IMG/VR virus record: IMGVR_UViG_2562617096_000005
Length of the DNA: 64,000 nucleotides
From: a virus
Taxonomy: Duplodnaviria; Caudoviricetes
Strand: one strand, 5' to 3'
Shown: positions 22,374 through 38,147 of the stretch, in pieces
Layout: each line of letters opens with the position of its first letter
How positions within the stretch are numbered: the stretch's first letter is position 1
Position numbers and translations under genes: made by a program
Notes under the pieces: model-generated
Database searches by the model: none
What the model saw: the letters and a program-made list of their open reading frames with translations, nothing else
Told to the model about the DNA's origin: nothing

Positions 22374-24308
22374 ATGAATGAAATGAGAGCTATCATAGAA
22401 CAATTAAAAGCAGCTAACGTTGCTTACTATCAGGAAAGTAGAGAAATCATGTCTAACTATGATTATGACAAACTCTACGATAAGCTGGTAGATATGGAGA
22501 AAGAAACAGGAGTTATTTATTCCGATTCTCCAACACAATCTGTAGCAAACGATTTTTTAGACTTCTTGCCAAAAGAAAAGCATGAAAAGAAGATGCTTTC
22601 TTTAGACAAAACAAAAAGTGTTGAAACTTTAAAAAGCTGGATAAGCGATAAAGATGGAATTTTGTCATGGAAATTAGATGGACTAACTGTTGTTCTTACT
22701 TACGACAATGGCGAGCTGCAAAAAGCCGTGACAAGAGGAAACGGTACAACAGGTGAAATTATCACTCAAAATGTATCAAGATGTAAAGGAGTACCATTGA
22801 AAATTCCATATAAAGAGAAACTAATTCTTAGAGGTGAAGCAGTTATTTCATATACTGATTTTGACAGAATTAATTCTCAGATAGAAGATGTTGGAGCAAG
22901 ATATAAAAACCCAAGAAATCTTGCTTCAGGAAGTATTCGCTTACTTGATGCATCCGAAAGTCAAAAAAGAAATGTCCAAGTCATTATATTTAGACTAATC
23001 TCTGGTAGTAAATTTAAGACAATGGACAAACAATTTAATTGGCTTTCTGAAATAGGATTTAATGTTGTAGAACATTATCCTGTAAATAAAGACAATATAG
23101 AAGAATGTGTAAAATTTTTTAAAAGAAAAATCGAAAATAATGACATTCCGACAGACGGTCTTGTAGTTTCATATAACAATACTGATTATGGCAATTCTCT
23201 TGGCAATACTTCGAAATTTGAAAGACATTCGTTTGCTTTCAAATGGAAAGATGAAGTTGCGGAAACTACTTTAAAAAAGATTGAATGGAGTCCTTCACGA
23301 ACAGGCTTACTTAATCCGGTAGCAATTTTTGAGCCGGTAGAGCTGGAAGGGACTACGGTAAGTCGTGCCAGTGTGCATAATATCAGTATTATTAAAGAAT
23401 TGAAACTCGGCATAGGAGATACAATCAAAGTTATCAAGTCTAATATGATAATCCCCCAAATTGTTGAAAACAGCACAAAGAGCAACAATTTAGATATCCC
23501 AAAACAATGTCCTATATGTGGAGGAGACACTAATATAATTTGCTCTAATGATACAGAGGTTCTAATGTGCATGAATACACACTGTCCAGAAAAGCTTATT
23601 GGAAAATTTGTACATTTTTGTGAAAGAGACGCAATGAATATTGAGGGAATGTCAGAGGCTACTGTTGATTTTCTCGTGAAAAAAGGATGGTTAAAGACAT
23701 TTAAAGATTTTTACAATTTATCTCAGTATAAGGCAACTTGGATGTCAATACCGGGATTTGGTAAAAAATCTGTTGAAAAATTATTCCTGTCAATAGAGAA
23801 AAGTAAACAAGTAAGTCCTGAAAGATTGTTGTATGCATTAGGAATACCTAAAATTGGAAGAAGTCAATCAAGAGAGATATTTAATCATTTTGATACATGG
23901 GATGATTTGATAAAATCCATGAAAGAGAAATTTGATTTTAGTAAATTAGACGGTTTTGGAGATGTATTAAATAAATCTATATACGATTGGTTTAAAGAAG
24001 ATTATAAATCAGAAGAAATTGAGCAACTTGTTAAAATTCTTGTGTTTGAAGAAAAAATAAAAACGGAGGAACTCCTTTCATTAACCAACAAAACATTTGT
24101 GATTACAGGAAGTTTGAATAAGTTCTCAAATAGAAATGATTTAAAATCTACAATTGAAACTCACGGAGGCAAAGTAACAGGGAGTGTGACTTCAAAGACA
24201 CATTATCTGATTAACAATGATACAACGTCAAATTCTTCTAAAAATAAAAAAGCAAAAGAGCTTGGTATTCCAATTATAAGCGAAGAAGAATTTCTAACAC
24301 TTTTGTAA
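22374..24308 (+). CDS. ligA: NAD-dependent DNA ligase
   Basis: KLDGL adenylation motif, TRGNG, NPRN, Zn finger, HhH and BRCT domains. Confidence 0.97.
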   Translation: MNEMRAIIEQLKAANVAYYQESREIMSNYDYDKLYDKLVDMEKETGVIYSDSPTQSVANDFLDFLPKEKHEKKMLSLDKTKSVETLKSWISDKDGILSWKLDGLTVVLTYDNGELQKAVTRGNGTTGEIITQNVSRCKGVPLKIPYKEKLILRGEAVISYTDFDRINSQIEDVGARYKNPRNLASGSIRLLDASESQKRNVQVIIFRLISGSKFKTMDKQFNWLSEIGFNVVEHYPVNKDNIEECVKFFKRKIENNDIPTDGLVVSYNNTDYGNSLGNTSKFERHSFAFKWKDEVAETTLKKIEWSPSRTGLLNPVAIFEPVELEGTTVSRASVHNISIIKELKLGIGDTIKVIKSNMIIPQIVENSTKSNNLDIPKQCPICGGDTNIICSNDTEVLMCMNTHCPEKLIGKFVHFCERDAMNIEGMSEATVDFLVKKGWLKTFKDFYNLSQYKATWMSIPGFGKKSVEKLFLSIEKSKQVSPERLLYALGIPKIGRSQSREIFNHFDTWDDLIKSMKEKFDFSKLDGFGDVLNKSIYDWFKEDYKSEEIEQLVKILVFEEKIKTEELLSLTNKTFVITGSLNKFSNRNDLKSTIETHGGKVTGSVTSKTHYLINNDTTSNSSKNKKAKELGIPIISEEEFLTLL

Positions 24309-24341
24309 AATAAAACCATCGTAGCATAAGCTGCGATGTAA

Positions 24342-24415
24342 GGGGCTTTAGTTCAGTTGGTTAGAACGCTCGGCTCATAACCGAGAAGTCATAGGTTCGA
24401 GTCCTATAAGCCCCA
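24342..24415 (+). tRNA. tRNA with CAT anticodon, most like tRNA-Ile2 (lysidine)
   Basis: Full cloverleaf GGGGCTT/AAGCCCC, CTCGG-CTCATAA-CCGAG, TTCGAGT T-loop; no encoded CCA. Confidence 0.9.
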
Positions 24416-24559
24416 TTAGGCTGATAGATTAAATCAATTGCCATAAAAACAGAGTAGATATAGTTTTTACTGTAATGCGTACCTGTACAAGTAACAGTTT
24501 TTACTAAGGTTTTATCCCTTACTCATGAGAGGTAATGAGCCTTTGAGTCTACTAATTTT

Positions 24560-24707
24560 GATAAGCATACTCAACAGAAATCTTTGGAACGTGCACGAAC
24601 TAAGGAAAGTATGATATGGAACGAGTAAAATATGATGCGATGAATGTGGAATGTGCACATGAAACAGACTTTACATTATAGAGATGGTTCAAATCCATTG
24701 CTTATCT
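24560..24707 (+). ncRNA. tRNA-like RNA: acceptor stem and T-arm enclosing about 115 nt of non-tRNA sequence
   Basis: GATAAGC/GCTTATC stem next to a GATGG-TTCAAAT-CCATT T-arm; 18 nt identical to 25455-25472. Confidence 0.55.
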
Positions 24708-24754
24708 CTCTACTATTTGCTTTATGATTTTTTTCAAATAGTAGACTCCTTTCT

Positions 24755-24826
24755 TGGGGTATCGCCAAGCGGTAAGGCACAGGACTTTGACTCCTGTATT
24801 CGCTGGTTCGAATCCAGCTATCCCAG
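24755..24826 (+). tRNA. tRNA-Gln(TTG)
   Basis: Canonical cloverleaf, CAGGA-CTTTGAC-TCCTG. Confidence 0.95.
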
Positions 24827-24904
24827 TTTTATCTTTACTCTGTATTTTTAAACACCCCTAACACACCCCCAAAAATGCAATACTCTACAGGGTAAAGGTA
24901 AAAA
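24827..24904 (+). ncRNA. Long hairpin with C-rich loop (candidate sRNA)
   Basis: TTTTATCTTTACTCTGTA pairs with TACAGGGTAAAGGTAAAA; loop contains CACCCC and CACACCCCC. Confidence 0.45.
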
Positions 24905-24909
24905 TAAAT

Positions 24910-25019
24910 GCAATGATAGTTCAGTTGGGAGAACGGCTGGCAAAAACAATGTTGTTAAAAATACATTGTAGACAGCAAAACAAACCAGCAGGTCGCAAGT
25001 TCGACTCTTGCTCATTGCA
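24910..25019 (+). ncRNA. tRNA-like RNA 1: anticodon loop replaced by a 44-nt hairpin+ACAGCAA module
   Basis: Acceptor GCAATGA/TCATTGC, D-arm GTTC/GAAC, stem GCTGG/CCAGC, T-arm GCAAG-TTCGACT-CTTGC; insert 24941-24984. Confidence 0.85.
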
Positions 25020-25090
25020 AGCTCCTTTGTTGGAGAGGTTATCTTTTTTATTTACTTTTAAATGAGTTGCAGGAATAACTGCAATTCTGA

Positions 25091-25164
25091 TGCGGAGTAG
25101 AGCAGTCTGGAAGCTCGTTAGCCTCATCAGCTAAAGATCAGTGGTTCAAATCCACTCTCCGCAA
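25091..25164 (+). tRNA. Atypical initiator-like tRNA-Met(CAT)
   Basis: fMet-type D-arm (A11:T24) and TTCAAAT T-loop, but anticodon stem TTAGC/GCTAA and C37. Confidence 0.85.
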
Positions 25165-25392
25165 TTCCTTGAGCTATAACTTTAAAATTTTGAAATATAT
25201 TTTCAAACATATAAATCACTTCCAAATAAATTTACTCAAGGACATGCCCCAATCGTAAAAGGAAACAATATTTCTAATTCGTAGCACTCTAAGTAGAGGT
25301 AAAGAGAATAGGGTAAAACTGCATTGTGAAATGCAGAAGTTCATAAGAGAACTGCAATAAAGTAACGATTTATTGTGAATGAAAAATTCAAA

Positions 25393-25491
25393 TCAGTTAC
25401 ATACAGCAAAATATAAAACAAATGGTTAAAGAAAGTATTATGACAAAATATTTCGAGATGGTTCAAATCCATCACAATTAAATGTAGCTGA
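25393..25491 (+). ncRNA. tRNA-like RNA 2: helix+ACAGCAA module replaces the acceptor stem (Y-RNA-like topology)
   Basis: TCAGTTACAT/ATGTAGCTGA closing helix, ACAGCAA 25403-25409, D-loop remnant, anticodon arm with ATGACAA loop (GAC), T-arm GATGG-TTCAAAT-CCATC. Confidence 0.75.
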
Positions 25492-25503
25492 GAAAATTTA
25501 ATA

Positions 25504-25632
25504 TGCAGGACATAGCTCAATTGGCTAGAGCACGTAAACTTTGTAGTATTGTTATAAATATGTTACATACAGCAATTATTTCTAATGCGCTTTTAACGCC
25601 GTGGTTATCGGTTCGAGTCCGGTTGTCCTGCA
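25504..25632 (+). ncRNA. tRNA-like RNA 3: tRNA-Lys(TTT) body with a 52-nt insert in the anticodon-stem 5' strand
   Basis: CG[25535-25586]GCG-CTTTTAA-CGCCG; insert holds a TGTAG...GTTACA hairpin and TACAGCAA. Confidence 0.85.
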
Positions 25633-25637
25633 AAATA

Positions 25638-25765
25638 TGCGGAGAATAGCTCAGATGGATAGAGCACTGTTAAAATTGTAGCGATGTAAAATATTCGTTA
25701 CATGCAGCAACATACATATTGCTTAGGGAGCCAGATGTCGCAGGTTCGAGTCTTGCTTCTCCGCA
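25638..25765 (+). ncRNA. tRNA-like RNA 4: tRNA-Pro(AGG) body with a 51-nt insert in the anticodon-stem 5' strand
   Basis: CTG[25670-25720]GC-TTAGGGA-GCCAG; insert holds a TGTAGCGA/TCGTTACA hairpin and TGCAGCAA. Confidence 0.85.
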
Positions 25766-25768
25766 CAA

Positions 25769-25842
25769 CAGAATATGAGAGTAATGGGTAACTCGGTTAG
25801 TGTTGGAAGCTTTCGTTCTAGGTTCGAGTCCTAGTGTTCTGA
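25769..25842 (+). tRNA. Degenerate tRNA (possible Pro TGG pseudo-tRNA)
   Basis: Acceptor CAGAATA/TGTTCTG and perfect T-arm CTAGG-TTCGAGT-CCTAG; anticodon stem only 3 bp. Confidence 0.55.
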
Positions 25843-25882
25843 TAGGTGTAAAATCTAAAATACAAAGAAAGGGAAATTAAAA

Positions 25883-27502
25883 ATGCAAAACAATTTTATA
25901 AAAGATTTTGTAGCAGATGGCGAATTATATTTGAAACCAAAAGGATTAAATTTTGCAGAAGCTGTAAAAGAAACACTAAATGAATTGCCATATAATGTGT
26001 CCATAAGTGAAAACGGTGCAATTGGATATAAGTCTTCAGGTCATGTTTTGGTAGATATTAACTATATGACAAGTTCGCTACGAAAGAAAACAGACAAAGA
26101 ATTAATCAACTTGTTCCAAGCTGCTTATTATGAAAACCCAATGTATGCATGGAAATGGCTATTCTTCTTACGTGATATTAGAGGTGGGATGGGTGAAAGA
26201 GATACTTTTCACAGAATTATCAAGTATATGGCTGACTTTAGACCACATGAGATGACACTATTTATTCCATATATAGCAGAATATGGACGATATGATGATA
26301 CATGGGTATTGCTTGATACACAACTTAACAGTATAGTAATTAAAATGATAAACGCACAGCTTCAAGAAGATATTAAAAATTATACTGAAGATAAACCAAT
26401 ATCATTGCTTGCGAAGTGGCTACCAAAACGTAATGCAGAAAGTCATATATCAAGACATTATGCAAGACTTATTATTGAAGGGTTAGAACTCGATGATAAG
26501 ACATACAATCGTATGTTGGTGAAATTGCGTAAGAAACTCAATTTGGTAGAAACTTTTATGTGTGCAAATCAATGGTCAGCAATTGACTACAATTCAGTAC
26601 CTTCTAAAGCAAATCTATTATATCGAAACGCTTTTCTTAAACACGATCCAGAAAGAAGACAACAGTATCTTGAAGATTTGGCTAACGGAAAAGAAGGAGT
26701 AAAAATCAATGCTTCTACTAACTTTCCTCACGATATTGTGCATCAGTATGTTACTGTAGATGGATATGGTTGGAGTTATAAATTAAAAAAATATGATGAG
26801 ACATTAGAACAACTTTGGAAAAATCAAAAAGATACTATTCAGTCAGCAGAAAATATTATGGTTATTCAAGATGGTTCTGGAAGTATGTATCAACCAATAG
26901 ATAGAAATTCTTCAGTGCAAGCAGAAGAAGTTGCAACAGCACTTTCTATTTACTTTGCTGAGAGATGTTCTGGTCAATTCAATAATAAGTTTATGACATT
27001 TGGAAATAGACCAAGGTTTGTTGATATTAGCAACTGTCAAAATCTTAAAGAAAAAATTCAGATTACTTTAAAAAATACAGATTGCAGTAATACGAATATT
27101 GAAAGAGTATTCCAGTTATTATTAGACACGGCTGTAAAAAACAACATGAAACAATCTGATTTGCCAAACACGCTATTGATGATTTCGGATATGGAATTTG
27201 ACTGTATGACTTCAGGAAGAACAGATAAAGCAATGTTTGATGAATTTGCTAAAGAATATGAACGATACGGATATAAATTACCAAGACTGGTGTTTTGGAA
27301 TATTTGTTCAAGAACAGGAACAATCCCTGTTAGAGAAAATGCGAATGGAGTAGCACTTGTATCAGGATATTCTGTAAACATAATGAATATGGTATTAAGT
27401 AATGAATTAGACCCGTACAAATGCCTATTAAAACAGCTTAATACAGAAAGGTATCAGATTATTGAAGATAGATTTAAAGAACTGGAGGGAAAAAGCAAAT
27501 GA
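25883..27502 (+). CDS. DUF2828-family protein (Ro60/TROVE-like helical domain plus vWA)
   Basis: LRDIRGGMGER, YGRYDD, SLLAKWLP, IDYNSVPS...AFLKHD, MIDAS DGSGS, ISDMEFD, VFWN. Confidence 0.8.
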   Translation: MQNNFIKDFVADGELYLKPKGLNFAEAVKETLNELPYNVSISENGAIGYKSSGHVLVDINYMTSSLRKKTDKELINLFQAAYYENPMYAWKWLFFLRDIRGGMGERDTFHRIIKYMADFRPHEMTLFIPYIAEYGRYDDTWVLLDTQLNSIVIKMINAQLQEDIKNYTEDKPISLLAKWLPKRNAESHISRHYARLIIEGLELDDKTYNRMLVKLRKKLNLVETFMCANQWSAIDYNSVPSKANLLYRNAFLKHDPERRQQYLEDLANGKEGVKINASTNFPHDIVHQYVTVDGYGWSYKLKKYDETLEQLWKNQKDTIQSAENIMVIQDGSGSMYQPIDRNSSVQAEEVATALSIYFAERCSGQFNNKFMTFGNRPRFVDISNCQNLKEKIQITLKNTDCSNTNIERVFQLLLDTAVKNNMKQSDLPNTLLMISDMEFDCMTSGRTDKAMFDEFAKEYERYGYKLPRLVFWNICSRTGTIPVRENANGVALVSGYSVNIMNMVLSNELDPYKCLLKQLNTERYQIIEDRFKELEGKSK

Positions 27503-30117
27503 ATTTGAATGGTTTAAATGACCAGCAAGTAGAAAAAAGCAGACAAAAATATGGTAGCAATAAGCTGCCAGAACCAAAGCAAAAGACGTGGTTTAATTTT
27601 TTTACAGACGGATTAAAGGATAAAATCACAATTATTCTAATCATGATGGCTGGAGTTTTCTTTGCTCTTGCATTTCTAGGAGTAGAAAGTTTTAGTGAGC
27701 CTGTTATTATTTTAGCAGTGTTAGCAATTGTGAGTGGAATTAATGTTAGAACAAATCTATCAATACAGAAATCAAATAATAGTCTAAGAGCAAAAACGGC
27801 GGTTAGATATTGTAATGTAATTAGAAATGGTTCTGTTGTAAAAATCAATAAAGATGATATTGTAGTTGGCGATATTATATGTCTTGAAATGGGACAGGAA
27901 ATCTTTGCAGATGGTTACATTGTTGAAGGTGAAATTGCTGTAAGTAACGCTGCAATTAATGGTGAAACAAAAGAATGTAAAAAACATTACATTTCAGGAT
28001 TTAAATATCCAGAAGAAATAACTACAGACCATTATACAGATGAAACGTGCGTATTTGCCGGAACAACTGTTATGTCTGGTGAAGCAAAAATGTTAGTACA
28101 GACAGTTGGTATTAACACTGTCAATGGAGACACACTGGTAAAAATGCAAACATTAGAGCCTACTAAAACTGCTTTAGATATTGCATTAGATAAGTTAGCT
28201 GATTTTATTTCTAAATGGGGAACAGTGGCAGCCTTTGGAGGATTTTTAATCGCAACAGCAACAGGTATCTTAGAAGTTGGATTTAGAGAATACTTTTCAG
28301 GAGATGTGTTACAGATAATAAGAACAATCGCTGAAAACATTTCAGTAGCCCTGACAATTATTGTAGCTGCTGTACCAGAAGGATTACCAATGATTGTAAA
28401 ATTTGTTACTAAAATGAATGTTAAGACAATGGAAAAGGCAAATATTCTTACAAAAAATCCTTCAAAGATACCAGAATTGGCTTATGTGAATTACGTATGT
28501 ACAGATAAAACAGGAACATTGACAACAGGTGTTATGACACCAAAAGAAATTATTACTGGTGACATGAAATCTCAAAAAATAAATAAAGATAATCTACCAG
28601 AAATTCTTAAAGAAAATATAGCTTTAACAAGCGGAAGCTTATTTGATGAAAAAGGAAAAATTACTGGTGGCAATTCAATAGATAGAGCAATGCTTAGTCT
28701 TCTTAATCAATCTGAATTCAATTCTATTTTGACTCAAAACCCAAAATCTAAAAAACAGCCTTTCAATAGTCAATTTAAGTATTCAGCGTTTTCTACAAGC
28801 TGTGAGTTTGGAGATACTTCCTATTATAAGGGTGCTCCTGAAAAGATTTTATCCAATTGTAAATACAGACTAGAAAATGGGAAAATTGTCGAAATGACAG
28901 ATGAGGATAGAATAAATATCTTGAGTGAAATCTATGACCTTACCACGAAAGCAATGAGATGTATTGCATTTGCATACAATATGGAAGCTTTAGAGGAAAA
29001 TGTAATACCAGAAGATTTAGTATTCACAGCAGTAATTGGAGTACAAGATCCAGTTCGTAAAGAAGTTCCTGATGCTGTTAAGACAGCAAAAGAGGCTGGA
29101 ATTACAGTAGTAGAAATTACAGGAGACTGTATTGAAACAGCAGTTGCAGTAGCTCAAGAAGCTGGTATTTATGAAAAAGGTGATATGGCTTTAACTGATG
29201 CAGAGTTTTCTGGAATGACAGATGAAGAAATTAAAGACATTATTCCACGTTTAAGAGTTATTGCTAGATGTTCTCCTACAACAAAATTGAGACTTATTAC
29301 ATTAGCTCAGGAGCTTGGATATTCCACAGCAATGACAGGTGACGGTACAAATGATGCACCAGCATTAACAAAATCTGACGTTGGTTTCGCCATGAATAGT
29401 GGCACTGATGTGGCAAAAGAAGCTGGTGATATTATCCTTGTAGACGATAACTTTGCTTCTATTGTAAAAGGAGTAAAACTTGGAAGAACATTTATGCACA
29501 ATATTCTTATGTTCTTGAATTTCCAGTTGCCAATCAATTATTCACTTCTTGCTATGAACTTCTTATATCCAGTCTTTTTAACAGGCTCTTTCTTAACATC
29601 AGCTCTTATTCTTATTATCAACATTATTATGGACTCTTTGAACTCCTTATCATTTGGTGGTGAACCTCCAAAAGATGAATATATGAAAGAACAACCTTTA
29701 AAGAAAGGTGAAGGATTATTTGTAAATGGAAGTAAAAAACATATTGCTATTAACGCATGTATCTTCTCTTTAGCGTTTGGTTTAATGATTTTTAGTCCAA
29801 TTAAGCATTTATTTGCAACTGAAGCCGCTGGATTATCAGCGAGATTTGCTTTACTTTGCTTTATGGCGGTATTAAATGGCTTTACTCTTAGAACAGATAG
29901 TAGAAACCTGTTTAAAGGATTAAGCAAGAATAAATTATTCTATCGAATTGCTATTGGGATTTTCGTAGGAACTATTGCTCTTGTACAGTTTGGGGGAAGC
30001 GTATTACATACAGCTTCATTGAACTTAACTCAGTGGTTAGCAGTAACAGCATTATCCACAATCGTTCTGTTAGCAGATTTTATTAGAAAAACAATGAAGA
30101 AAAGGAGAAATAAATAA
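27499..30117 (+). CDS. P-type ATPase, Ca2+-transporting PMCA-like (P2)
   Basis: NGET, VAAVPEGLP, DKTGTLT, KGAPE, TGDGTNDAPAL, NIIMD; multiple TM helices; ATGA overlap with the DUF2828 gene. Confidence 0.92.
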   Translation: MNLNGLNDQQVEKSRQKYGSNKLPEPKQKTWFNFFTDGLKDKITIILIMMAGVFFALAFLGVESFSEPVIILAVLAIVSGINVRTNLSIQKSNNSLRAKTAVRYCNVIRNGSVVKINKDDIVVGDIICLEMGQEIFADGYIVEGEIAVSNAAINGETKECKKHYISGFKYPEEITTDHYTDETCVFAGTTVMSGEAKMLVQTVGINTVNGDTLVKMQTLEPTKTALDIALDKLADFISKWGTVAAFGGFLIATATGILEVGFREYFSGDVLQIIRTIAENISVALTIIVAAVPEGLPMIVKFVTKMNVKTMEKANILTKNPSKIPELAYVNYVCTDKTGTLTTGVMTPKEIITGDMKSQKINKDNLPEILKENIALTSGSLFDEKGKITGGNSIDRAMLSLLNQSEFNSILTQNPKSKKQPFNSQFKYSAFSTSCEFGDTSYYKGAPEKILSNCKYRLENGKIVEMTDEDRINILSEIYDLTTKAMRCIAFAYNMEALEENVIPEDLVFTAVIGVQDPVRKEVPDAVKTAKEAGITVVEITGDCIETAVAVAQEAGIYEKGDMALTDAEFSGMTDEEIKDIIPRLRVIARCSPTTKLRLITLAQELGYSTAMTGDGTNDAPALTKSDVGFAMNSGTDVAKEAGDIILVDDNFASIVKGVKLGRTFMHNILMFLNFQLPINYSLLAMNFLYPVFLTGSFLTSALILIINIIMDSLNSLSFGGEPPKDEYMKEQPLKKGEGLFVNGSKKHIAINACIFSLAFGLMIFSPIKHLFATEAAGLSARFALLCFMAVLNGFTLRTDSRNLFKGLSKNKLFYRIAIGIFVGTIALVQFGGSVLHTASLNLTQWLAVTALSTIVLLADFIRKTMKKRRNK

Positions 30118-30863
30118 TGGGATTTTTCAGTTTTTTAAATGGAAATAAAAATGAAACTGAGTCTGGGCACAATAGTGCACCAGCTCAGGAAACTAAAAAA
30201 GTATGTATTGATATGTCAAAAGAGAATTTGAATAAAGTTTTAATTAACATGTCAAAAGATAACAAGATTGATATGACAAAACATACGGCAAGAGTTGCAG
30301 TTGCAATGGATTATAGTGGAAGTATGAGCGATGAATTTAGAGAAGGAAAAGTACAGGATGTAATTACAAGACTTCTTCCTATTGCCTTGAGGTTTGATGA
30401 TAATAAAGAACTGGAATGTTGGCTATTTTCAAATGGAGAAGAAAGACTTGAAGTTATTACTGAAAAGAATTATGAAAACTATGTAGATAAAGTAATGTTG
30501 AAAGCACGTATGGGCATGGGAGGTACGGAATATGCACCTGTATTAACAAGTATGGTTCATCACTATAAAGATATTGAGCCTAGCACAATTCCTGCATTTA
30601 TCATGTTTATTACAGATGGAGATAACTGGGATAAAGAAAAAACAAATGACATTATCAGGGAATTATCCGCATACAACATATTTGTCCAGTTTGTAGGAAT
30701 TGGAAATGATAATTTTAAATATCTGAAATCTTTGGACGACATGAAAGGCAGAGAGAATGATAATACAGGGTTTATCTCTGTAAAAGATATTGCAAAATTA
30801 GATGATGAGCAGCTATATACAGAGCTTTTGAGACAATATAAAGATTGGTTAGCGAATAAATAG
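30117..30863 (+). CDS. vWA domain protein (Ter-associated, TerF-vWA-like)
   Basis: DYSGSM MIDAS, GGTEY, FITDG, FVQFVGIG. Confidence 0.85.
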   Translation: MGFFSFLNGNKNETESGHNSAPAQETKKVCIDMSKENLNKVLINMSKDNKIDMTKHTARVAVAMDYSGSMSDEFREGKVQDVITRLLPIALRFDDNKELECWLFSNGEERLEVITEKNYENYVDKVMLKARMGMGGTEYAPVLTSMVHHYKDIEPSTIPAFIMFITDGDNWDKEKTNDIIRELSAYNIFVQFVGIGNDNFKYLKSLDDMKGRENDNTGFISVKDIAKLDDEQLYTELLRQYKDWLANK

Positions 30864-30875
30864 GAGGAAGAAAAA

Positions 30876-31517
30876 ATGCCAGTAATTGATATGAGTAAAA
30901 ATCAAAAAATTAACATGACAAAAGAAGATGGAAGCAACATTAAAAATATTTTCATTGGTGTGCGTTGGGATATGAATAGATTTTCCGGCGAAGGAGATAT
31001 TGATTTTGATATACATGGGTTCTTAACAAACAGCGATAAAAAAGTTCAATATCCTTCAGATATCGTGAATTTTAGTACATACGGAGATGGAAAAAATTAT
31101 CCGTGGGTTGAATACTCTGGAGATAACAGAACAGGCGATGACTCACAGGGTATTGAATTTAATGGGAGACATTTTGATGAGTATTTTATTGTTCACGCTG
31201 ATAAGTTTCCAGCAAACAAAACAGACTTTACAATTTGCTTAACAATTTTCAGAGCAATTCAACGATTGCAGAATTTTGGCATGGTAAATAATGCAATGGT
31301 TACAGTATATGACTATGACAATCCGTCAGGTTTTGAAGCAAACTTTGATTTATCAGAAGATGAAAAGTTTGAAAAATTAAATGCTGTGGAGCTTGGAAGA
31401 TTATACAAGCATAACGGTGGATTTAAATTTCAGGCAATTGGTTCTGGTTATACAGGCGGTATGGTTGAATTATTTAAAACATTTGATTTAGACATTGATG
31501 AAGGTAGGGATGCTTAA
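30876..31517 (+). CDS. terD: TerD/TerZ family stress protein
   Basis: GVRWD, DFD, SGDNRTGD, ELGRLYKHNGGFKFQAIG. Confidence 0.85.
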   Translation: MPVIDMSKNQKINMTKEDGSNIKNIFIGVRWDMNRFSGEGDIDFDIHGFLTNSDKKVQYPSDIVNFSTYGDGKNYPWVEYSGDNRTGDDSQGIEFNGRHFDEYFIVHADKFPANKTDFTICLTIFRAIQRLQNFGMVNNAMVTVYDYDNPSGFEANFDLSEDEKFEKLNAVELGRLYKHNGGFKFQAIGSGYTGGMVELFKTFDLDIDEGRDA

Positions 31518-32260
31518 TGACTTTCGCAACGGTATTACTTTTATTAACTGTTGGTATTGTTGGAGGAATTCTTTTGTTTACAAAAATAGGCAAAAGAATT
31601 CGCCTTAGAGCAACAGGAACAATCAATGAAAAATTAAGTGAAGATGCATCTACTCCTGAAGGTGCAAAAGCATATTTTAATGCTGCTATTGAAAAGAAAG
31701 AAGAAGATTATTCTAAAGCAAGTGCTAACTATAGTCAAATTCTTGGAAAATTATCTGCATTTGAAAAAGATTTAAGAACACTCCAAAAAGATGAAATGAA
31801 AGTTAATATGGATATTGACTCTTGCGTATCTCGTGGTGATGATGAAGGGGCTAAAACATATTTGAAAATGCAGCAAGAAATTACAGATAAGATGGAAGTT
31901 CTCAAAGAAGGTATTAAGGATTTGAAAGAGAACGAAAGGTTGCAGAAAGAGACAGTTGATAAGCTCTATGATGATTTGGCACAGTTAAAAGCTGAAAAAG
32001 AAAAAACCGTATTCACTTTGGAAACAGTAGAAGCTACAAAATCTTTGAAAGCTGATACCACAGTGTCTTCAAATGAAGAAGATAAAATGTTAGAAAAAGT
32101 CAGAGATGGAGTCAGAAAAGCAAGAGAAGAGTCTGAAGGAAACAGAATAGCTTATGAAAATTCTGCTAGCGTGCAGAAAAAACGTCTGGATAAAAAAATG
32201 AAAGACGAAGAAATCAATAAGAAGTTAGCTGAACTGAAAGCAAAGAAAGGAATGAAATAA
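31517..32260 (+). CDS. Membrane-anchored PspA/IM30-like coiled-coil protein
   Basis: N-terminal TM helix, long coiled coil, C-terminal DEEINKKLAELKAK. Confidence 0.6.
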   Translation: MTFATVLLLLTVGIVGGILLFTKIGKRIRLRATGTINEKLSEDASTPEGAKAYFNAAIEKKEEDYSKASANYSQILGKLSAFEKDLRTLQKDEMKVNMDIDSCVSRGDDEGAKTYLKMQQEITDKMEVLKEGIKDLKENERLQKETVDKLYDDLAQLKAEKEKTVFTLETVEATKSLKADTTVSSNEEDKMLEKVRDGVRKAREESEGNRIAYENSASVQKKRLDKKMKDEEINKKLAELKAKKGMK

Positions 32261-32261
32261 T

Positions 32262-32398
32262 ATGTGGGTTCTATTTCTTTTAGCGGTTTTAGGATATGCA
32301 GTGTTGGGATTGATAATTGTATGGATTGGAAATAAAGTTATCAATTCAATCAAAAAAGATGACAAAAAGATAGAAAAAGAATTGGAGGAAGACCATAA
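32262..32398 (+). CDS. Small membrane protein
   Basis: MWVLFLLAVLGYAVLGLIIVW..., single TM segment. Confidence 0.55.
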
Positions 32399-32401
32399 GC
32401 C

Positions 32402-33292
32402 ATGAAGAAAAAAGTTATAGCTAGTATTGTTTTAGTAGTTGCATTGGCAGGCGGAGTTTTTACAGTGAGCCAGATGGAAAAAATTCCAACAGGAAGAGTA
32501 GGAGTTCAATATTCATTGAATGGTGGAGTAAAAGATGAAGTATTGGACATGGGAGTACATTTTGTTCTTCCTGGTATTCACGTAAAAGAATTTACAATTG
32601 GAAATGAACAGTTAATTCTATCAAAAGATAAGAGAGAAGGAAGTGAAGGGGACGACTCTTTCAAAGTTGCTACTTCTGATGATGCAAGTATTTCTATTAG
32701 TTTTCAGATGTCCTATAGATATATTCCTGAAACAGTAGTAGATACATATAAGAAATTCAAAGGTATGGATGGAGAAGATATTGTTGAACAGCGTGTGAAA
32801 ACAGTGTTAAAATCAAAGATTTCTGAAATTACAACAGATTACAGTATGATGCAGTTATATAGTGGAAATAGATCAGAAATCAACGACAAAATCACTGAAT
32901 ATTTAAATGAAGAATTTGGCGAAGCGTATGGCATTGAAGTTTTGGATGCATCCATTATTGACGTTCATCCTGACGATAAGTTAAAGGCAGCAATTGATGA
33001 TAGAGTGAAAGCTTTGCAGGAAAAACAGCAAGCGGAAGCAGAGCAGGAAAAAATTAAAGTTCAAAAAGAAACCGAAAAAATGCAAGCGGAAGCAGATGCT
33101 CAGATTGCAGTAACACAGGCTCAAGCAAAAGCAGAAAAAATGCGTATCGAAGCTCAGGCGGAGGCAGATGCAAATAATTTGAAATCTAACTCCATTACAC
33201 CAGAACTCATTCAGATGAAAGAGGCAGAGGCAAGATTACAGCATGGTTGGGTAACTGTTCAGGGTGCAAATGCAGTAGTTAAGGAGGAATAA
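32402..33292 (+). CDS. SPFH/Band-7 (prohibitin-like) protein
   Basis: IPTGRVGVQY...G, TSDD, AQAEADAN...SITPELI. Confidence 0.9.
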   Translation: MKKKVIASIVLVVALAGGVFTVSQMEKIPTGRVGVQYSLNGGVKDEVLDMGVHFVLPGIHVKEFTIGNEQLILSKDKREGSEGDDSFKVATSDDASISISFQMSYRYIPETVVDTYKKFKGMDGEDIVEQRVKTVLKSKISEITTDYSMMQLYSGNRSEINDKITEYLNEEFGEAYGIEVLDASIIDVHPDDKLKAAIDDRVKALQEKQQAEAEQEKIKVQKETEKMQAEADAQIAVTQAQAKAEKMRIEAQAEADANNLKSNSITPELIQMKEAEARLQHGWVTVQGANAVVKEE

Positions 33293-35769: not shown

Positions 35770-36684
35770 CTGAGTATATTACCCAAATTATTTATGATGA
35801 TTGGTATTCCCGGTAGTGGAAAATCACAAGAAGCAGAGATAATTGCAAAAGAACATAACGCAGTAATTCATGCTTCTGATAGATTGCGAGAAGAGTTGTT
35901 CCGAGATGTAAACCACATGGGAGATAATGGCTTTCTTTTTAATGAACTTCATAAAAGAATTCAGAGAGATTTAAAAGCTGGTAAAAACGTTATATATGAT
36001 GCAACAAATATCAATTCGAAAAAAAGAATATCATTTCTGAAATCTTTAAAAGATATTCCCTGTGAAAAAATTGCAATTCTCATAATGACTCCATACCAGC
36101 AATGTTTGAAAAATAATGCAGAGAGGGAAAGAAGTATTCCTGAAAGTGTTATAGAGAAAATGTATACGAACTTCCAAGTTCCTTATTATTATGAAGGATT
36201 TGATATTATTCAGGTAGTTTTATGGCAAGGGGCAGATTACAAAGAGCCAGAAGAAATTGTTACAAGTTATAATAATTTTAATCAAGAAAATGAGCACCAT
36301 ACTTTAACTCTTGGTCGGCACTTATATCATGCTTTTCATTACATAGGGCAACGATTTGTTAGACATGAAAGAGGATATACTTTCGAACTGTTGTGGGCTT
36401 CATATCTTCACGACATAGGGAAGCCATTTTGCAAGGAGTGCAAAGAAGGAGACAAAAATGCTCACTATTATAACCACATGAACGTAGGTGCATACGACTC
36501 ATTTTTTTATACCTCAAAAGTATTAGACGACTCATTATTAATAGCTTGGTTAATTAACTGGCACATGGAACCCTTCTTTTGGAAGAAAGATGAAAAATTA
36601 AAAGAAAACAGATTAAAACTATGGGGAAAAGATTTATTTGAAATGATAGAAAAATTACATAAAGCGGATTTATACGCTCATTAA
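35770..36684 (+). CDS. Polynucleotide kinase (AAA_33) fused to an HD phosphohydrolase; probable CTG start
   Basis: GIPGSGKS, DATN, HHTLTLGRH, LHDIGKPF, WHM. Confidence 0.85.
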   Translation: MSILPKLFMMIGIPGSGKSQEAEIIAKEHNAVIHASDRLREELFRDVNHMGDNGFLFNELHKRIQRDLKAGKNVIYDATNINSKKRISFLKSLKDIPCEKIAILIMTPYQQCLKNNAERERSIPESVIEKMYTNFQVPYYYEGFDIIQVVLWQGADYKEPEEIVTSYNNFNQENEHHTLTLGRHLYHAFHYIGQRFVRHERGYTFELLWASYLHDIGKPFCKECKEGDKNAHYYNHMNVGAYDSFFYTSKVLDDSLLIAWLINWHMEPFFWKKDEKLKENRLKLWGKDLFEMIEKLHKADLYAH

Positions 36685-36860
36685 AAAGGAGAATAAGAAT
36701 GTTAAAAGAGAAACAGTTTATTGAAGATGTATGTAAGGTATTGGTACATGAAGATTCCGAAACAGTATTTGCTTTATTAAATAAAGCAGGTATTGAAATT
36801 GATGTAGAGAAAGATAATGTTTTTGATGTAATCCGTAAAATCAGAGGTTTAAAAGCTTAA

Positions 36861-38147
36861 TTGTATTGTGGATATATTGTACAGCTACAGAACCTGCGTA
36901 AGCACTCAAATGCAGACAGATTGCAATGTGTAAATATTTTTGGAAACAATGTAATTGTAGATATGTCTTATTACGAAGGACAAATAGTAGTCTTCTTTCC
37001 TGTAGATGGAAGATTGAGTGATGAATACGCATTAGCAAATAATTTAGTTAGAAAAAAAGATGAGACAGGTAAAAATATTGGAGGATATTTAGAGCCTGAG
37101 AAAAATAACATCAGAGCATTGAAGCTTAGAGGAGAAAAGTCCGAAGGTTTAGTAATGCCGGTAGAAACATTATTATCATACACAAGTATGGAAACATTAA
37201 AGGTCGGAGATAAAATTACGACATTAAATGGTCATTTGATTTGTGAGAAATATATCCCTAAAAGAAAAACCTTAAAAGGTGGAAACAGTTCAACAAAATC
37301 AAAAAACATTTCTAAGAAGGAAAAATATCCTATCTTTATAGAACATGTTGATACTGAACAGTTGATGTGCAATAAACAAGCATTTAAACCCGGAGATAAA
37401 TGCACAATTACATTAAAGATGCATGGAACAAGCAGTAGAGAAATGTATAGTATCAAACATGAACGATTCAAAAAAAATTTCATAGAAAAATTACTAAAAA
37501 AAGAACCTAGAACTAAAAAAGAATGGACGTATGTTTCAGGTACAAGGAGATGTATATTAGAAGATTTCGATGGAGGATTTTATGGTTCAAATGAATTTAG
37601 AAAACCGTGGCATGATTTCTTTGAAGGAAAATTAGAAAAAGGTGAAACAGTCTACGGAGAGATTGTAGGTTACGTTAATAATCAAACTCCTATTATGGGT
37701 AGTTGTTCTACTTCAAAATTACAGGATAAGGAAGCCAAAAAACTTTATGGAAAAGAAATGGTATTTTCCTATGGTTGTAATCCCGGAGAAAATCAATACT
37801 ATGTTTATCGTATGACGCTGACCAATGAGGACGGATACACTATTGAATATCCTGATTGGCTCATGAGATTAAGATGTGAGCAAATGGGAGTGGATTGTGT
37901 GCCACTTTTTGAAACATTTGAATATTCAACGTGGGAAGATTTAATGGAACGTGTTGAAAAATACTATGATGGAGTAGACCCTGTAGGAAAAACACACATT
38001 CGAGAAGGAGTTGTTGTACGAATTGAAAATAGACCTAAATTCACAGCATTTAAACATAAAAACTTCACTTTTAAATTAGTCAGCGGTATCATCTCAGAAA
38101 ATGCTGACATTGCAAATATGACAGACGATATGGTTGAGGAGCTTTAA
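36861..38147 (+). CDS. ATP-dependent RNA ligase (Rnl2/DRB0094-like) with N-terminal OB domain
   Basis: HSNADRL, LRGEKSEG, KMHGTS (motif I), YGEI, EGVVVR, FKHK. Confidence 0.85.
   Translation: MYCGYIVQLQNLRKHSNADRLQCVNIFGNNVIVDMSYYEGQIVVFFPVDGRLSDEYALANNLVRKKDETGKNIGGYLEPEKNNIRALKLRGEKSEGLVMPVETLLSYTSMETLKVGDKITTLNGHLICEKYIPKRKTLKGGNSSTKSKNISKKEKYPIFIEHVDTEQLMCNKQAFKPGDKCTITLKMHGTSSREMYSIKHERFKKNFIEKLLKKEPRTKKEWTYVSGTRRCILEDFDGGFYGSNEFRKPWHDFFEGKLEKGETVYGEIVGYVNNQTPIMGSCSTSKLQDKEAKKLYGKEMVFSYGCNPGENQYYVYRMTLTNEDGYTIEYPDWLMRLRCEQMGVDCVPLFETFEYSTWEDLMERVEKYYDGVDPVGKTHIREGVVVRIENRPKFTAFKHKNFTFKLVSGIISENADIANMTDDMVEEL

What the first reader, a model, noticed from the sequence alone, without database searches (positions are those of the whole stretch)
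24910..27502. Candidate new system: tRNA-mimic RNAs sharing a helix+ACAGCAA module next to a Ro60/TROVE-like DUF2828 gene
Seen: four tRNA-derived RNAs with different bodies carry the same foreign module, a helix immediately followed by unpaired (A/G)CAGCAA and A/T-rich linkers: 24972 (ACAATGT/ACATTGT-AG-ACAGCAA), 25403, 25569 and 25704 (TGTAG.../GTTACA-T-RCAGCAA). T-arms are intact in all four and D-arms in three, while the decoding or aminoacylation parts are disrupted. They sit directly upstream of a helical-repeat plus vWA protein. Known: Ro60/Rsr has that architecture, binds Y RNAs, bacterial YrlA RNAs mimic tRNA, and such loci associate with RNA-repair genes. Inference: the module is the DUF2828 binding site, making these a distinct Y-RNA analog class that tethers tRNA-shaped decoys or scaffolds, for example to absorb host anticodon nucleases or recruit the phage kinase and ligase. 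The module does not resemble the canonical Ro-binding stem.
Basis: partly seen in the sequence, partly recalled or inferred. Interest (0 to 1): 0.9.

Follow-up and report, generated by a model that had tools for sequence, protein, structure and literature searches.

The report
Ro60-like protein with handle-tagged tRNA mimics
A prophage encodes a ring protein predicted to fold like the RNA-surveillance protein Ro60, preceded by four tRNA-shaped RNAs that share one short "handle" (a helix plus ACAGCAA). The same pairing recurs beside this protein family in many bacteria and phages, so it looks like an uncatalogued relative of the Ro60/Y-RNA particle.

Summary
RCAGCAA sits 0-2 nt 3' of a 7-9 bp helix at 24972, 25403, 25569 and 25704, inside tRNA-shaped RNAs directly upstream of a DUF2828+DUF7788 gene (25883-27502).

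- **Correction:** at 25403 the helix is a long-range closing stem (25394-25402 with 25482-25490), not a local hairpin.
- **Protein:** the AlphaFold model matches Ro60/TROVE over its whole length (Foldseek E 1.6e-9; Z 12-16). Pfam TROVE itself does not hit.
- **Recurrence:** in 40 DUF2828 loci, 39 of them from other genomes of the same order, handle units occur at 1.2 per kb next to the gene on its strand, against 0.07-0.10 per kb in controls. The capped helix covaries (6 of 7 pairs).
- **Neighbours elsewhere:** RtcB lies in 24 loci, a WYL regulator in 17-21 and RlaP in 7. This mirrors the known rsr-yrlBA-rtcBA operon.
- **This prophage:** it carries a Pnk-HD kinase and an RNA ligase instead.
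- **RNA2 and RNA3:** deleting the handle restores perfect anticodon arms (Lys-UUU; loop UUAGGGA).
- **Catalogues:** no Rfam family or paper describes the RNA.
- **Caveat:** a covariance model trained on other loci does not score the window's divergent handles significantly.

Best reading: Y-RNA-like partners of a Ro60-like protein. Binding is inferred, not shown. Earlier notes of this scan report the same system on other DNA, and I borrow their word "handle".

The parts
24910..25019 (+). RNA1: a tRNA body (acceptor, D-arm, intact 5-bp anticodon stem, T-arm) whose anticodon loop is replaced by a capped handle. Helix 24946-24952/24963-24969, cap loop 24953-24962, ACAGCAA at 24972-24978.
   Evidence: Rfam tRNA 52.3 bits with a 43-nt insert. 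Found by the split-tRNA scanner and the hairpin scan. The fold has a z-score of -3.1.
25394..25490 (+). RNA-B: a linear handle unit. The 5' strand 25394-25402 is followed by ACAGCAA at 25403-25409. The payload holds an anticodon-like hairpin (25435-25451, loop AUGACAA) and a T-arm (25457-25473). The 3' strand 25482-25490 closes a 9-bp stem.
   Evidence: The MFE fold pairs these two strands. The unit scanner calls it linear with a 72-nt payload.
25505..25632 (+). RNA2: a tRNA body with a 52-nt handle insertion (25535-25586) in the 5' strand of the anticodon stem, between positions 28 and 29. Helix 25542-25549/25560-25567, ACAGCAA at 25569-25575. Anticodon loop CUUUUAA at 25590-25596 (Lys UUU). 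A possible eighth acceptor pair G-1:C73.
   Evidence: Rfam tRNA 37.3 bits. Deleting the insertion gives a perfect stem CGGCG/CGCCG with U33 and A37; 2.7% of shuffled controls do as well. Flanks.
25639..25765 (+). RNA3: a tRNA body with a 51-nt handle insertion (25670-25720) between anticodon-stem positions 29 and 30. Helix 25677-25684/25695-25702, GCAGCAA at 25704-25710. Loop UUAGGGA at 25723-25729. A possible G-1:C73 pair.
   Evidence: Split-tRNA scanner. Deleting the insertion gives a perfect stem CTGGC/GCCAG; 1.7% of shuffled controls do as well. Flanks.
25769..25842 (+). A tRNA-like gene of normal length without a handle. Two pairs of its anticodon stem are mispaired; loop GUUGGAA (UGG).
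   Evidence: Rfam tRNA 36.2 bits against a gathering score of 29. ARAGORN does not call it.
25883..27502 (+). A 539-aa DUF2828 + DUF7788 protein, Ro60-like: a helical TROVE-like domain plus a vWA domain with MIDAS residues D330, S332, S334, T404 and D436.
   Evidence: Pfam and phrog_850. PDB phmmer hits only TROVE proteins, E = 0.004. AlphaFold2 pLDDT 84. The Foldseek top 12 are Ro60. VIA Z 12.3-15.9 over residues ~37-530. Invariant columns.
24342..25164 (+). Ordinary tRNA genes of the same cluster: Met 24342-24415, Gln 24754-24827, Met 25091-25164. RNA1 is interleaved with them.
   Evidence: ARAGORN; Rfam.
35794..38147 (+). RNA end-healing and sealing genes of the prophage: a polynucleotide kinase with an HD domain (35794-36684) and an ATP-dependent RNA ligase (36861-38147). 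Their link to the handle RNAs is contextual only.
   Evidence: Pfam AAA_33 and RNA_ligase; PHROG polynucleotide kinase and RNA ligase; NCBIfam Pnkp, HDIG and RNA_lig_DRB0094 below their cut-offs.

Best explanation
The four RNAs are non-coding, tRNA-shaped RNAs that carry a common protein-binding 'handle'. The handle is a 7-9 bp helix whose base is flanked by single-stranded ACAGCAA on one strand and an A-rich stretch on the other, with UG just 3' of the opposite strand.

The handle is most likely the docking site for the adjacent DUF2828 protein, a Ro60-like ring with a vWA domain. Together they would form a ribonucleoprotein analogous to Ro60 with its Y RNAs (YrlA type).

The handle comes in two topologies:
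- capped by a loop and grafted into the anticodon arm of a tRNA body (RNA1-3);
- formed by the two ends of the RNA, closing a payload that carries tRNA arms (the 25403 unit).

The tRNA-shaped part would then display an anticodon loop or a tRNA elbow to tRNA-handling enzymes, while the ring protein holds it. In cellular loci the partners are RtcB, RlaP and a WYL regulator (an RNA-repair operon). In this prophage the nearest equivalents are a Pnk-HD kinase and an RNA ligase.

Shown here: the RNA anatomy, helix covariation, co-location with DUF2828 across genomes, and the Ro60-like predicted fold.

Inferred: physical binding, expression as stable RNAs, and the repair or counter-defence role.
For: **Anatomy:**

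**Helix:** in 13 capped handles from 7 other genomes, 100% of cells are paired and 6 of 7 pairs show compensatory changes. None of 500 shuffles reaches the covariation score, and slid controls give 37-56% paired.

**Linkage to DUF2828:**
- 27 of 27 new covariance-model hits lie on the DUF2828 strand, 25 within 330 nt upstream.
- There are 90 units in 35 of 40 loci, at 1.21 per kb. The reverse strand of the same zone gives 0.067 per kb and the rest of the loci 0.10 per kb.
- A genome that the protein search (E <= 1e-20) did not list as positive, yet which gave a covariance-model hit, has a broken DUF2828 gene beside intact handles, RtcB and WYL.
- The constant partner is DUF2828, not RtcB or WYL. 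The window's own genome has no RtcB, WYL or RlaP homologue by tblastn.

**Protein:** Ro60/TROVE are the only full-length structural matches, and the MIDAS residues are invariant.

**Context:**
- RtcB lies in 24 of 40 loci (mostly adjacent to the gene on its strand), WYL in 17-21 and RlaP in 7. This parallels Ro60-YrlA-RtcB as described in PMC4201824 and PMC7790460.
- DUF2828 sits in or after tRNA clusters in cultured phages, with unannotated handle units in the gaps between tRNAs.
Against: - No binding or expression data exist.
- A covariance model trained without the window (R2) gives the window's handles only 14.6, 11.7 and 10.5 bits (E 0.1-1.4). That is no better than a chance hit inside a coding region. 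Family membership of this divergent subtype therefore rests on the shared ACAGCAA, the helix adjacency, the A-rich and UG flanks and the gene context.
- Pfam's TROVE model does not match the protein, and the handle does not resemble the canonical Ro-binding helix.
- Five of 40 loci showed no unit with my scanner.
- Close relatives of this prophage (proteins 72-99% identical) could not be fetched, so covariation of the window-type helix is seen only among its four paralogues.
Confidence: 0.7

Rival explanations
1. The handles of RNA2 and RNA3 are intervening sequences. An endonuclease would cut them out, and the prophage's kinase and RNA ligase would heal and seal the ends. The products would be working tRNA-Lys(UUU) and a tRNA with the loop UUAGGGA.
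For: Deleting 25535-25586 or 25670-25720 restores perfect 5-bp anticodon stems with 7-nt loops and U33. Shuffled controls do this 1.7-2.7% of the time. Two further embedded RNAs in other genomes behave the same way, 4 of 15 in all. A Pnk-HD kinase and an RNA ligase lie about 10 kb downstream.
Against: The same element forms the terminal closing stem of units that have no exons to join: the 25403 unit and 69 linear units elsewhere. Eleven of 15 embedded RNAs leave no canonical anticodon arm, including RNA1. The inserts lie at different stem positions. The unspliced RNA can still form the anticodon stem, with the handle as a side branch. No group I intron or self-cleaving ribozyme family matches. 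I found no splicing endonuclease, although I did not search for one systematically.
Confidence: 0.1
2. The handles act in cis: as processing signals or autoregulatory sites in the leader of the DUF2828 transcript, or as punctuation of the tRNA array. They would not be stable partner RNAs acting in trans.
For: Most hits lie within 330 nt upstream of the gene on its strand. No convincing promoter or terminator separates them from the gene in the window.
Against: Many units are complete tRNA-like bodies with acceptor stems, which are RNase P and RNase Z substrates and would be released. Arrays reach six or more units, some sit downstream of the gene, and in a cultured phage they are spread over 3 kb of a tRNA cluster. 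Autoregulation and partner RNAs are not mutually exclusive.
Confidence: 0.12
3. The handle is recognised by another factor, such as a host ribonuclease, a tRNA-modifying enzyme or an RNA ligase. Its association with DUF2828 would then be only an operon neighbourhood.
For: Binding is untested. RtcB, WYL and RlaP co-occur in many loci.
Against: DUF2828 is the only neighbour present in all loci, including this prophage, whose host genome lacks RtcB, WYL and RlaP homologues, and including the cultured phages. Its fold is that of a dedicated RNA-binding ring.
Confidence: 0.08

Closest known systems
Ro60/Rsr with YrlA-type Y RNAs of bacteria and phages (Rfam RF02553; Chen et al. 2014, PMC4201824), including the rsr-yrlBA-rtcBA operon (PMC7790460)
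   Same: The protein has a ring-shaped helical domain plus a vWA/MIDAS domain. The partner RNA genes lie directly beside the protein gene. The RNAs are closed by a stem formed from their two ends, and their payloads mimic tRNA (T- and D-arms). RtcB is a frequent neighbour.
   Different: The protein belongs to Pfam DUF2828/DUF7788, not TROVE, and is 10-17% identical to solved Ro60 structures. The binding module is a different motif (helix plus ACAGCAA, an A-rich strand and UG). The RNAs come in arrays, and many are whole tRNA bodies with the module grafted into the anticodon arm. YrlA model scores stay at about half the gathering threshold.
Ro60 homologue of Thermus phage phiLo (PDB 9l5y, 9kop; PMC12135203)
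   Same: It is the best structural and sequence match (Foldseek E 1.6e-9, Z 14.6-15.9; phmmer E 0.004 in the MIDAS region). It is also phage-encoded.
   Different: It is a TROVE-family member, and I know of no handle RNAs described for it.
Phage tRNA gene clusters with tRNA repair enzymes (T4 Pnkp and Rnl1, which counter the PrrC anticodon nuclease; from established knowledge)
   Same: This is a phage tRNA cluster with a polynucleotide kinase and an RNA ligase in the same genome, and RNA2 displays a Lys-UUU anticodon loop.
   Different: Here the tRNA bodies carry a 50-nt side branch and are unlikely to decode. No anticodon nuclease was identified.
tRNA introns (bacterial group I introns; archaeal bulge-helix-bulge introns at non-canonical positions)
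   Same: An insertion in the anticodon arm whose removal restores a canonical tRNA (RNA2, RNA3).
   Different: The inserts are 51-52 nt, far too small for group I, and no ribozyme family matches. The same element also occurs as the terminal stem of RNAs that have no exons.

Membership tests
Ro60/TROVE proteins | Full-length architecture: a helical-repeat ring followed by a vWA domain | tested here: met
   The Foldseek top 12 hits are all Ro60/TROVE, with 510-575 aligned columns. VIA Z is 12.3-15.9 with 359-417 residues aligned over model residues ~37-530. Hits to vWA domains alone follow at Z <= 10.4.
Ro60/TROVE proteins | MIDAS metal site in the vWA domain (DxSxS ... T ... D) | tested here: met
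   D330, T404 invariant, and S332, S334 and D436 at least 90% conserved, in 37 homologues. phmmer aligns this stretch to 9l5y.
Ro60/TROVE proteins | Match to the Pfam TROVE model | tested here: not met
   Pfam reports only DUF7788 (7.5e-41) and DUF2828 (2.9e-32). NCBIfam reports nothing.
Ro60/TROVE proteins | Binds a Y RNA stem on the outer surface of the ring | not testable with these tools
   Needs biochemistry or a solved structure of the complex.
YrlA (Rfam RF02553) | Reaches the family's gathering score (69 bits) | tested here: not met
   The window scores 32.5 bits, on a chimera that spans RNA2 and RNA3. Other loci score 34-39 bits.
YrlA (Rfam RF02553) | Closing stem formed by the 5' and 3' ends, enclosing a tRNA-like T-arm and D-arm | tested here: inconclusive
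   The 25403 unit has the closing stem and a T-arm but no D-arm. Some units in other loci show the full YrlA order: T-arm, capped stem, D-arm.
Handle-RNA family next to DUF2828 (undescribed; defined here from other loci) | A 7-9 bp helix with ACAGCAA 0-2 nt 3' of one strand, an A-rich stretch 5' of the other strand and UG 3' of it | tested here: met
   All four window units have these features. Across the 90 units found at the 40 loci (window included), ACAGCAA occurs in 73. The 8 nt 5' of the opposite strand are 43-48% A. Most cap loops begin with G or UG.
Handle-RNA family next to DUF2828 (undescribed; defined here from other loci) | Lies on the strand of a DUF2828 gene, mostly just upstream | tested here: met
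   The window units lie 179-911 nt upstream on the same strand.
Handle-RNA family next to DUF2828 (undescribed; defined here from other loci) | Significant score with a covariance model trained on other members | tested here: inconclusive
   R1 gives 12.7 bits. R2 gives 14.6, 11.7 and 10.5 bits, E 0.1-1.4, which matches chance hits. The window's helix sequence and its 10-nt cap differ from the GYGYCUU/GNNA type that dominates the training set.
tRNA (RF00005) | Cloverleaf with a continuous anticodon arm, called by tRNA finders | tested here: not met
   Rfam scores RNA1 and RNA2 above the gathering score only by skipping inserts of 43 and 65 nt. ARAGORN calls none of RNA1-3.
Self-splicing or self-cleaving introns | Match to a group I or group II intron, or to a small ribozyme family | tested here: not met
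   No such Rfam family matches at E <= 10 in 24000-26000.

The most novel reading that the evidence does not exclude
The handle-tagged tRNA bodies are bait or sensors in the phage-host fight over tRNA. RNA2 shows a Lys-UUU anticodon loop and RNA3 and the 25403 unit show other anticodon-like loops. They would offer these loops to host anticodon nucleases while the Ro60-like ring holds the RNA by its handle. Cleaved halves would then stay together and be re-sealed by the phage kinase and ligase (or by RtcB in cellular loci), or the particle would titrate the nuclease. That would be a protein-RNA counter-defence particle of a new kind.
Probability: 0.2. Interest if true: 0.85.

Novelty: new variant of a known kind. 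Interest (0 to 1): 0.72.

Why it matters
**Scale of the protein family.** Ro60 and Y RNAs are a classic RNA-surveillance particle. Bacterial partners are known only for TROVE-family proteins. DUF2828 is a very large family: at least 7,981 proteins at E <= 1e-50 among the 8,000 candidates scored, 710 phage records, and about 10% of sampled genomes of this order. It has no described function or RNA partner in the literature I could search.

**What the finding offers.**
- A conserved, easily mutated handle next to the gene gives a directly testable RNP.
- It explains unannotated gaps in phage tRNA clusters.
- It links tRNA-shaped RNAs to RtcB, RlaP and WYL repair operons and to phage tRNA repair genes.
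- The clean grafts into tRNA-Lys and a second tRNA in this prophage give a natural experiment on whether the anticodon loop is the business end.

Tried and rejected
- **Exact-pattern scans of IMG/VR.** Patterns built from the window-type handle gave only chance hits in coding DNA. One ambiguous case (L025) has no DUF2828 within 10 kb.
- **Blastn of the region against phages and relatives' genomes.** It found only the ordinary tRNAs.
- **The search for related loci with the protein.** Nothing was found in genome contigs or viral contigs.
The contigs of homologues 72-99% identical could not be read, so covariation of the window-type helix in close relatives is untested.
- **My first generic scanner for linear units.** It was far too permissive on the whole genome, giving 762 hits that included cell-wall repeat genes. 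I dropped it. A stricter version with controls replaced it.
- **The YrlA hit.** It is an artefact of adjacent T- and D-arms from two different RNAs.
- **Promoter and terminator scan.** Uninformative.
- **Model R2.** It does not detect the window's handles significantly.
- **Genome-level specificity test with R1.** Low-powered: 3 hits in 151 genomes. One is a known locus, one is a locus with a broken DUF2828 gene, and one is a false positive with UCAGCAA.
- **Papers not held.** Burroughs & Aravind 2016 and the 2020 Ro60 review could not be read. Whether they place DUF2828 within ROT/TROVE is unverified.
Full report
**Setting.** The window is the minus strand of 1840155-1904154 in a single-contig 3.07 Mb bacterial genome. 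The region is a large prophage. It carries tyrosine recombinases, an NAD-dependent DNA ligase, a DnaB-like helicase, a PD-(D/E)XK nuclease, DNA polymerase III alpha, RecD2, ribonucleotide reductase, a Bro-N protein and GmrSD. Between the DNA ligase gene and a DUF2828 gene lies a 1.5 kb non-coding stretch. It holds three ordinary tRNAs (Met, Gln, Met) and the RNAs of the finding.

RCAGCAA lies at 24972, 25403, 25569 and 25704 on the + strand.
- RNA1 (24910-25019), RNA2 (25505-25632) and RNA3 (25639-25765) have a 7-bp acceptor stem, a D-arm and a T-arm.
- Rfam's tRNA model scores RNA1 at 52.3 bits and RNA2 at 37.3 bits, but only by skipping inserts of 43 and 65 nt. ARAGORN calls none of them.
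- In these three RNAs a 7-8 bp helix capped by a 10-nt loop (consensus UGUWAWAWAU) is followed after 1-2 nt by RCAGCAA.
- The unit at 25403 is different. Its strand 25394-25402 pairs with 25482-25490, 72 nt downstream (MFE fold). That stem closes a payload holding an anticodon-like hairpin and a T-arm.
- The three distal pairs of the helix differ by compensatory changes among RNA2, RNA3 and this unit, and RNA1 has a different helix altogether (read).
- Four motifs in 739 nt compares with about 0.27 expected from the + strand rate.
- The 13-mer TTACATRCAGCAA occurs three times in the whole genome, all here.

**The element is not private to this genome.**
- DUF2828 homologues (E <= 1e-20) occur in 42 of 401 sampled genomes of the same order.
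- A scanner for over-long tRNAs found tRNA bodies with a hairpin plus ACAGCAA next to the gene in several other genera.
- Thirteen capped hairpins from seven genomes align without gaps. All cells pair, and six of seven pairs show changes on both sides. No shuffle reaches the covariation score, and slid controls drop to 37-56% paired.
- A covariance model built from them (R1) was run over 579 kb of loci. All 27 new hits at E <= 0.12 in DUF2828 loci lie on the gene's strand, 25 within 330 nt upstream.

**One element, two topologies.** Reading the upstream regions showed this.
- In the linear form, the strand followed by ACAGCAA opens the unit. Its partner strand, preceded by an A-rich run and followed by UG, closes it after a payload of 16-153 nt.
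- In the capped form, the same helix is closed by a loop and sits in the anticodon arm of a tRNA body.
- A stricter scanner found 90 units (69 linear, 21 capped) in 35 of 40 loci in the zone from -1500 to the gene start and from the gene end to +400. That is 1.21 per kb. The reverse complement of the same zone gives 0.067 per kb, and the rest of the loci give 0.10 per kb.
- At least 19 linear payloads contain a T-arm. Some show the YrlA order of T-arm, capped stem, D-arm.
- Cultured phages carry the element unannotated. Bacillus phage vB_BcoS-136 has at least nine units in the gaps of its tRNA cluster, and Enterococcus phage VRE9_4 has one just upstream of its DUF2828 gene.

**The protein.**
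- Pfam gives DUF7788 and DUF2828, and PHROGs gives phrog_850 'RNA-binding protein'.
- The only solved proteins found by sequence are TROVE proteins of Thermus phage phiLo (E = 0.004, aligned at the MIDAS motif).
- An AlphaFold2 model built from 37 homologues has mean pLDDT 84.4 and pTM 0.82.
- Its 12 best Foldseek matches in the PDB are all Ro60/TROVE, over essentially the full length (E 1.6e-9 to 7e-5).
- The second-look aligner gives Z 12.3-15.9 for ten Ro60 entries over residues ~37-530. Hits to vWA domains alone follow at Z <= 10.4.
- The MIDAS residues and many arginines of the helical domain are invariant.
- The protein is therefore Ro60-like in fold and architecture, but it lies outside the Pfam TROVE family.

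**Neighbours.**
- In the 40 loci, RtcB lies in 24, mostly directly adjacent to the gene on its strand. A WYL-domain regulator lies upstream in 17-21, and the RlaP nucleotidyltransferase in 7.
- This mirrors the Ro60-YrlA-RtcB arrangement known from Salmonella (PMC4201824, PMC7790460).
- One genome with a covariance-model hit, not listed as positive by the protein search, turned out to have intact handles, RtcB and WYL next to a fragmented DUF2828 gene.
- The window's own genome has no RtcB, WYL or RlaP homologue by tblastn. The prophage instead has a polynucleotide kinase fused to an HD domain and an ATP-dependent RNA ligase about 10 kb downstream.
- DUF2828 is thus the only constant companion of the handle.

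**What is particular to this window.**
- In RNA2 and RNA3 the handle is a clean insertion in the 5' strand of the anticodon stem.
- Removing 25535-25586 gives stem CGGCG/CGCCG and loop CUUUUAA (Lys UUU).
- Removing 25670-25720 gives stem CTGGC/GCCAG and loop UUAGGGA.
- Shuffled controls reach such a result in 1.7-2.7% of trials. Across loci, 4 of 15 embedded RNAs behave this way, and one of the others is again Lys UUU.
- In the uncut RNA the anticodon stem can still form, with the handle as a side branch. These RNAs probably display a real anticodon loop.
- Both have a possible G-1:C73 eighth acceptor pair.
- The window's helix sequence and its long cap differ from the common GYGYCUU/GNNA type. 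A model trained only on other loci scores the window's handles at 10.5-14.6 bits, which is not significant.
- Their membership therefore rests on the shared motif, its flanks, the topology and the gene context.

**Interpretation.**
- The best-supported reading is a Ro60-like RNP. The ring protein docks on the handle, and the tRNA-shaped payload is presented to tRNA-handling or repair enzymes. This is analogous to Y RNAs that tether Ro60 to other factors.
- The intron reading explains RNA2 and RNA3. It does not explain the linear units, RNA1, or most embedded RNAs elsewhere.
- A purely cis-regulatory role is hard to reconcile with complete tRNA bodies and with arrays spread through tRNA clusters.
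- Binding, expression and function are all inferred.

**Novelty.**
- No Rfam 15 family other than tRNA reaches threshold on the window or on 15 other loci.
- Full-text searches for DUF2828, for the motif, and for Ro60/TROVE with phage tRNA clusters found no description of these RNAs.
- The jumbo-phage survey PMC7824862 mentions ROT/TROVE proteins with a tRNA-like partner in general terms only.
- Notes of this scan show that other agents reached the same reading on other genomes: 201 notes in at least 171 genomes. I had reached my reading before seeing them and tested it independently here. I borrow their word 'handle'.

Noticed in passing
window 27499-33292: The DUF2828 stop overlaps the start of a P-type cation ATPase gene (27499-30117). 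It is followed by vWA-TerF-like (30117-30863), TerD (30876-31517), PspA-like (31517-32260) and SPFH/Band-7 (32402-33292) genes. This is a Ter-type membrane-stress module inside a prophage, possibly co-transcribed with the Ro60-like gene.
   Followed up: partly
window 25505/25631 and 25639/25764: RNA2 and RNA3 have a G at position -1 that can pair with C73, giving an 8-bp acceptor stem like that of tRNA-His. The same is seen in embedded RNAs of L091 and L094. No tRNA or tRNA-like RNA of the cluster encodes CCA.
   Followed up: partly
window 24600-24715: A degenerate relative of the 25403 unit. It has the same T-arm sequence (GAUGGUUCAAAUCCAU) preceded by ACAGAC instead of ACAGCAA, and I found no closing stem.
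   Followed up: no
L064:9388-9661 (G347): One tRNA body of 274 nt carries three tandem capped handles in its anticodon arm. The same locus has three further handle-bearing tRNA bodies, and the genome has two DUF2828 genes on one contig.
   Followed up: partly
L106 (G052:C1:390800-398900): A DUF2828 gene broken into at least three out-of-frame fragments still has intact handle units upstream, RtcB downstream and a WYL regulator.
   Followed up: partly
L021 (Bacillus phage vB_BcoS-136, MH884508.1 53346-62833): At least nine unannotated handle units fill the gaps between annotated tRNA genes upstream of the phage's DUF2828 gene. Some carry D- and T-arms.
   Followed up: partly
L025:2620-2700 minus strand (IMG/VR contig 3300010885_062053): The 5' half of a tRNA (acceptor strand, D-arm, start of the anticodon stem) runs into a capped hairpin followed directly by ACAGCAA, and then into a normal tRNA-Arg. 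No DUF2828 lies within the 10 kb held.
   Followed up: partly
window 45225-50641: The DNA polymerase III alpha domains are split between two ORFs (45225-47255 and 49355-50641). About 2 kb holding small ORFs lies between them, which may be an intervening mobile element.
   Followed up: no
L023 (MT837221.1, human faecal phage scaffold): The closest phage-collection homologue of the protein (38.6% identity) lies 68 nt after an RtcB gene. No tRNA or handle was detected in the 7.4 kb scaffold.
   Followed up: partly
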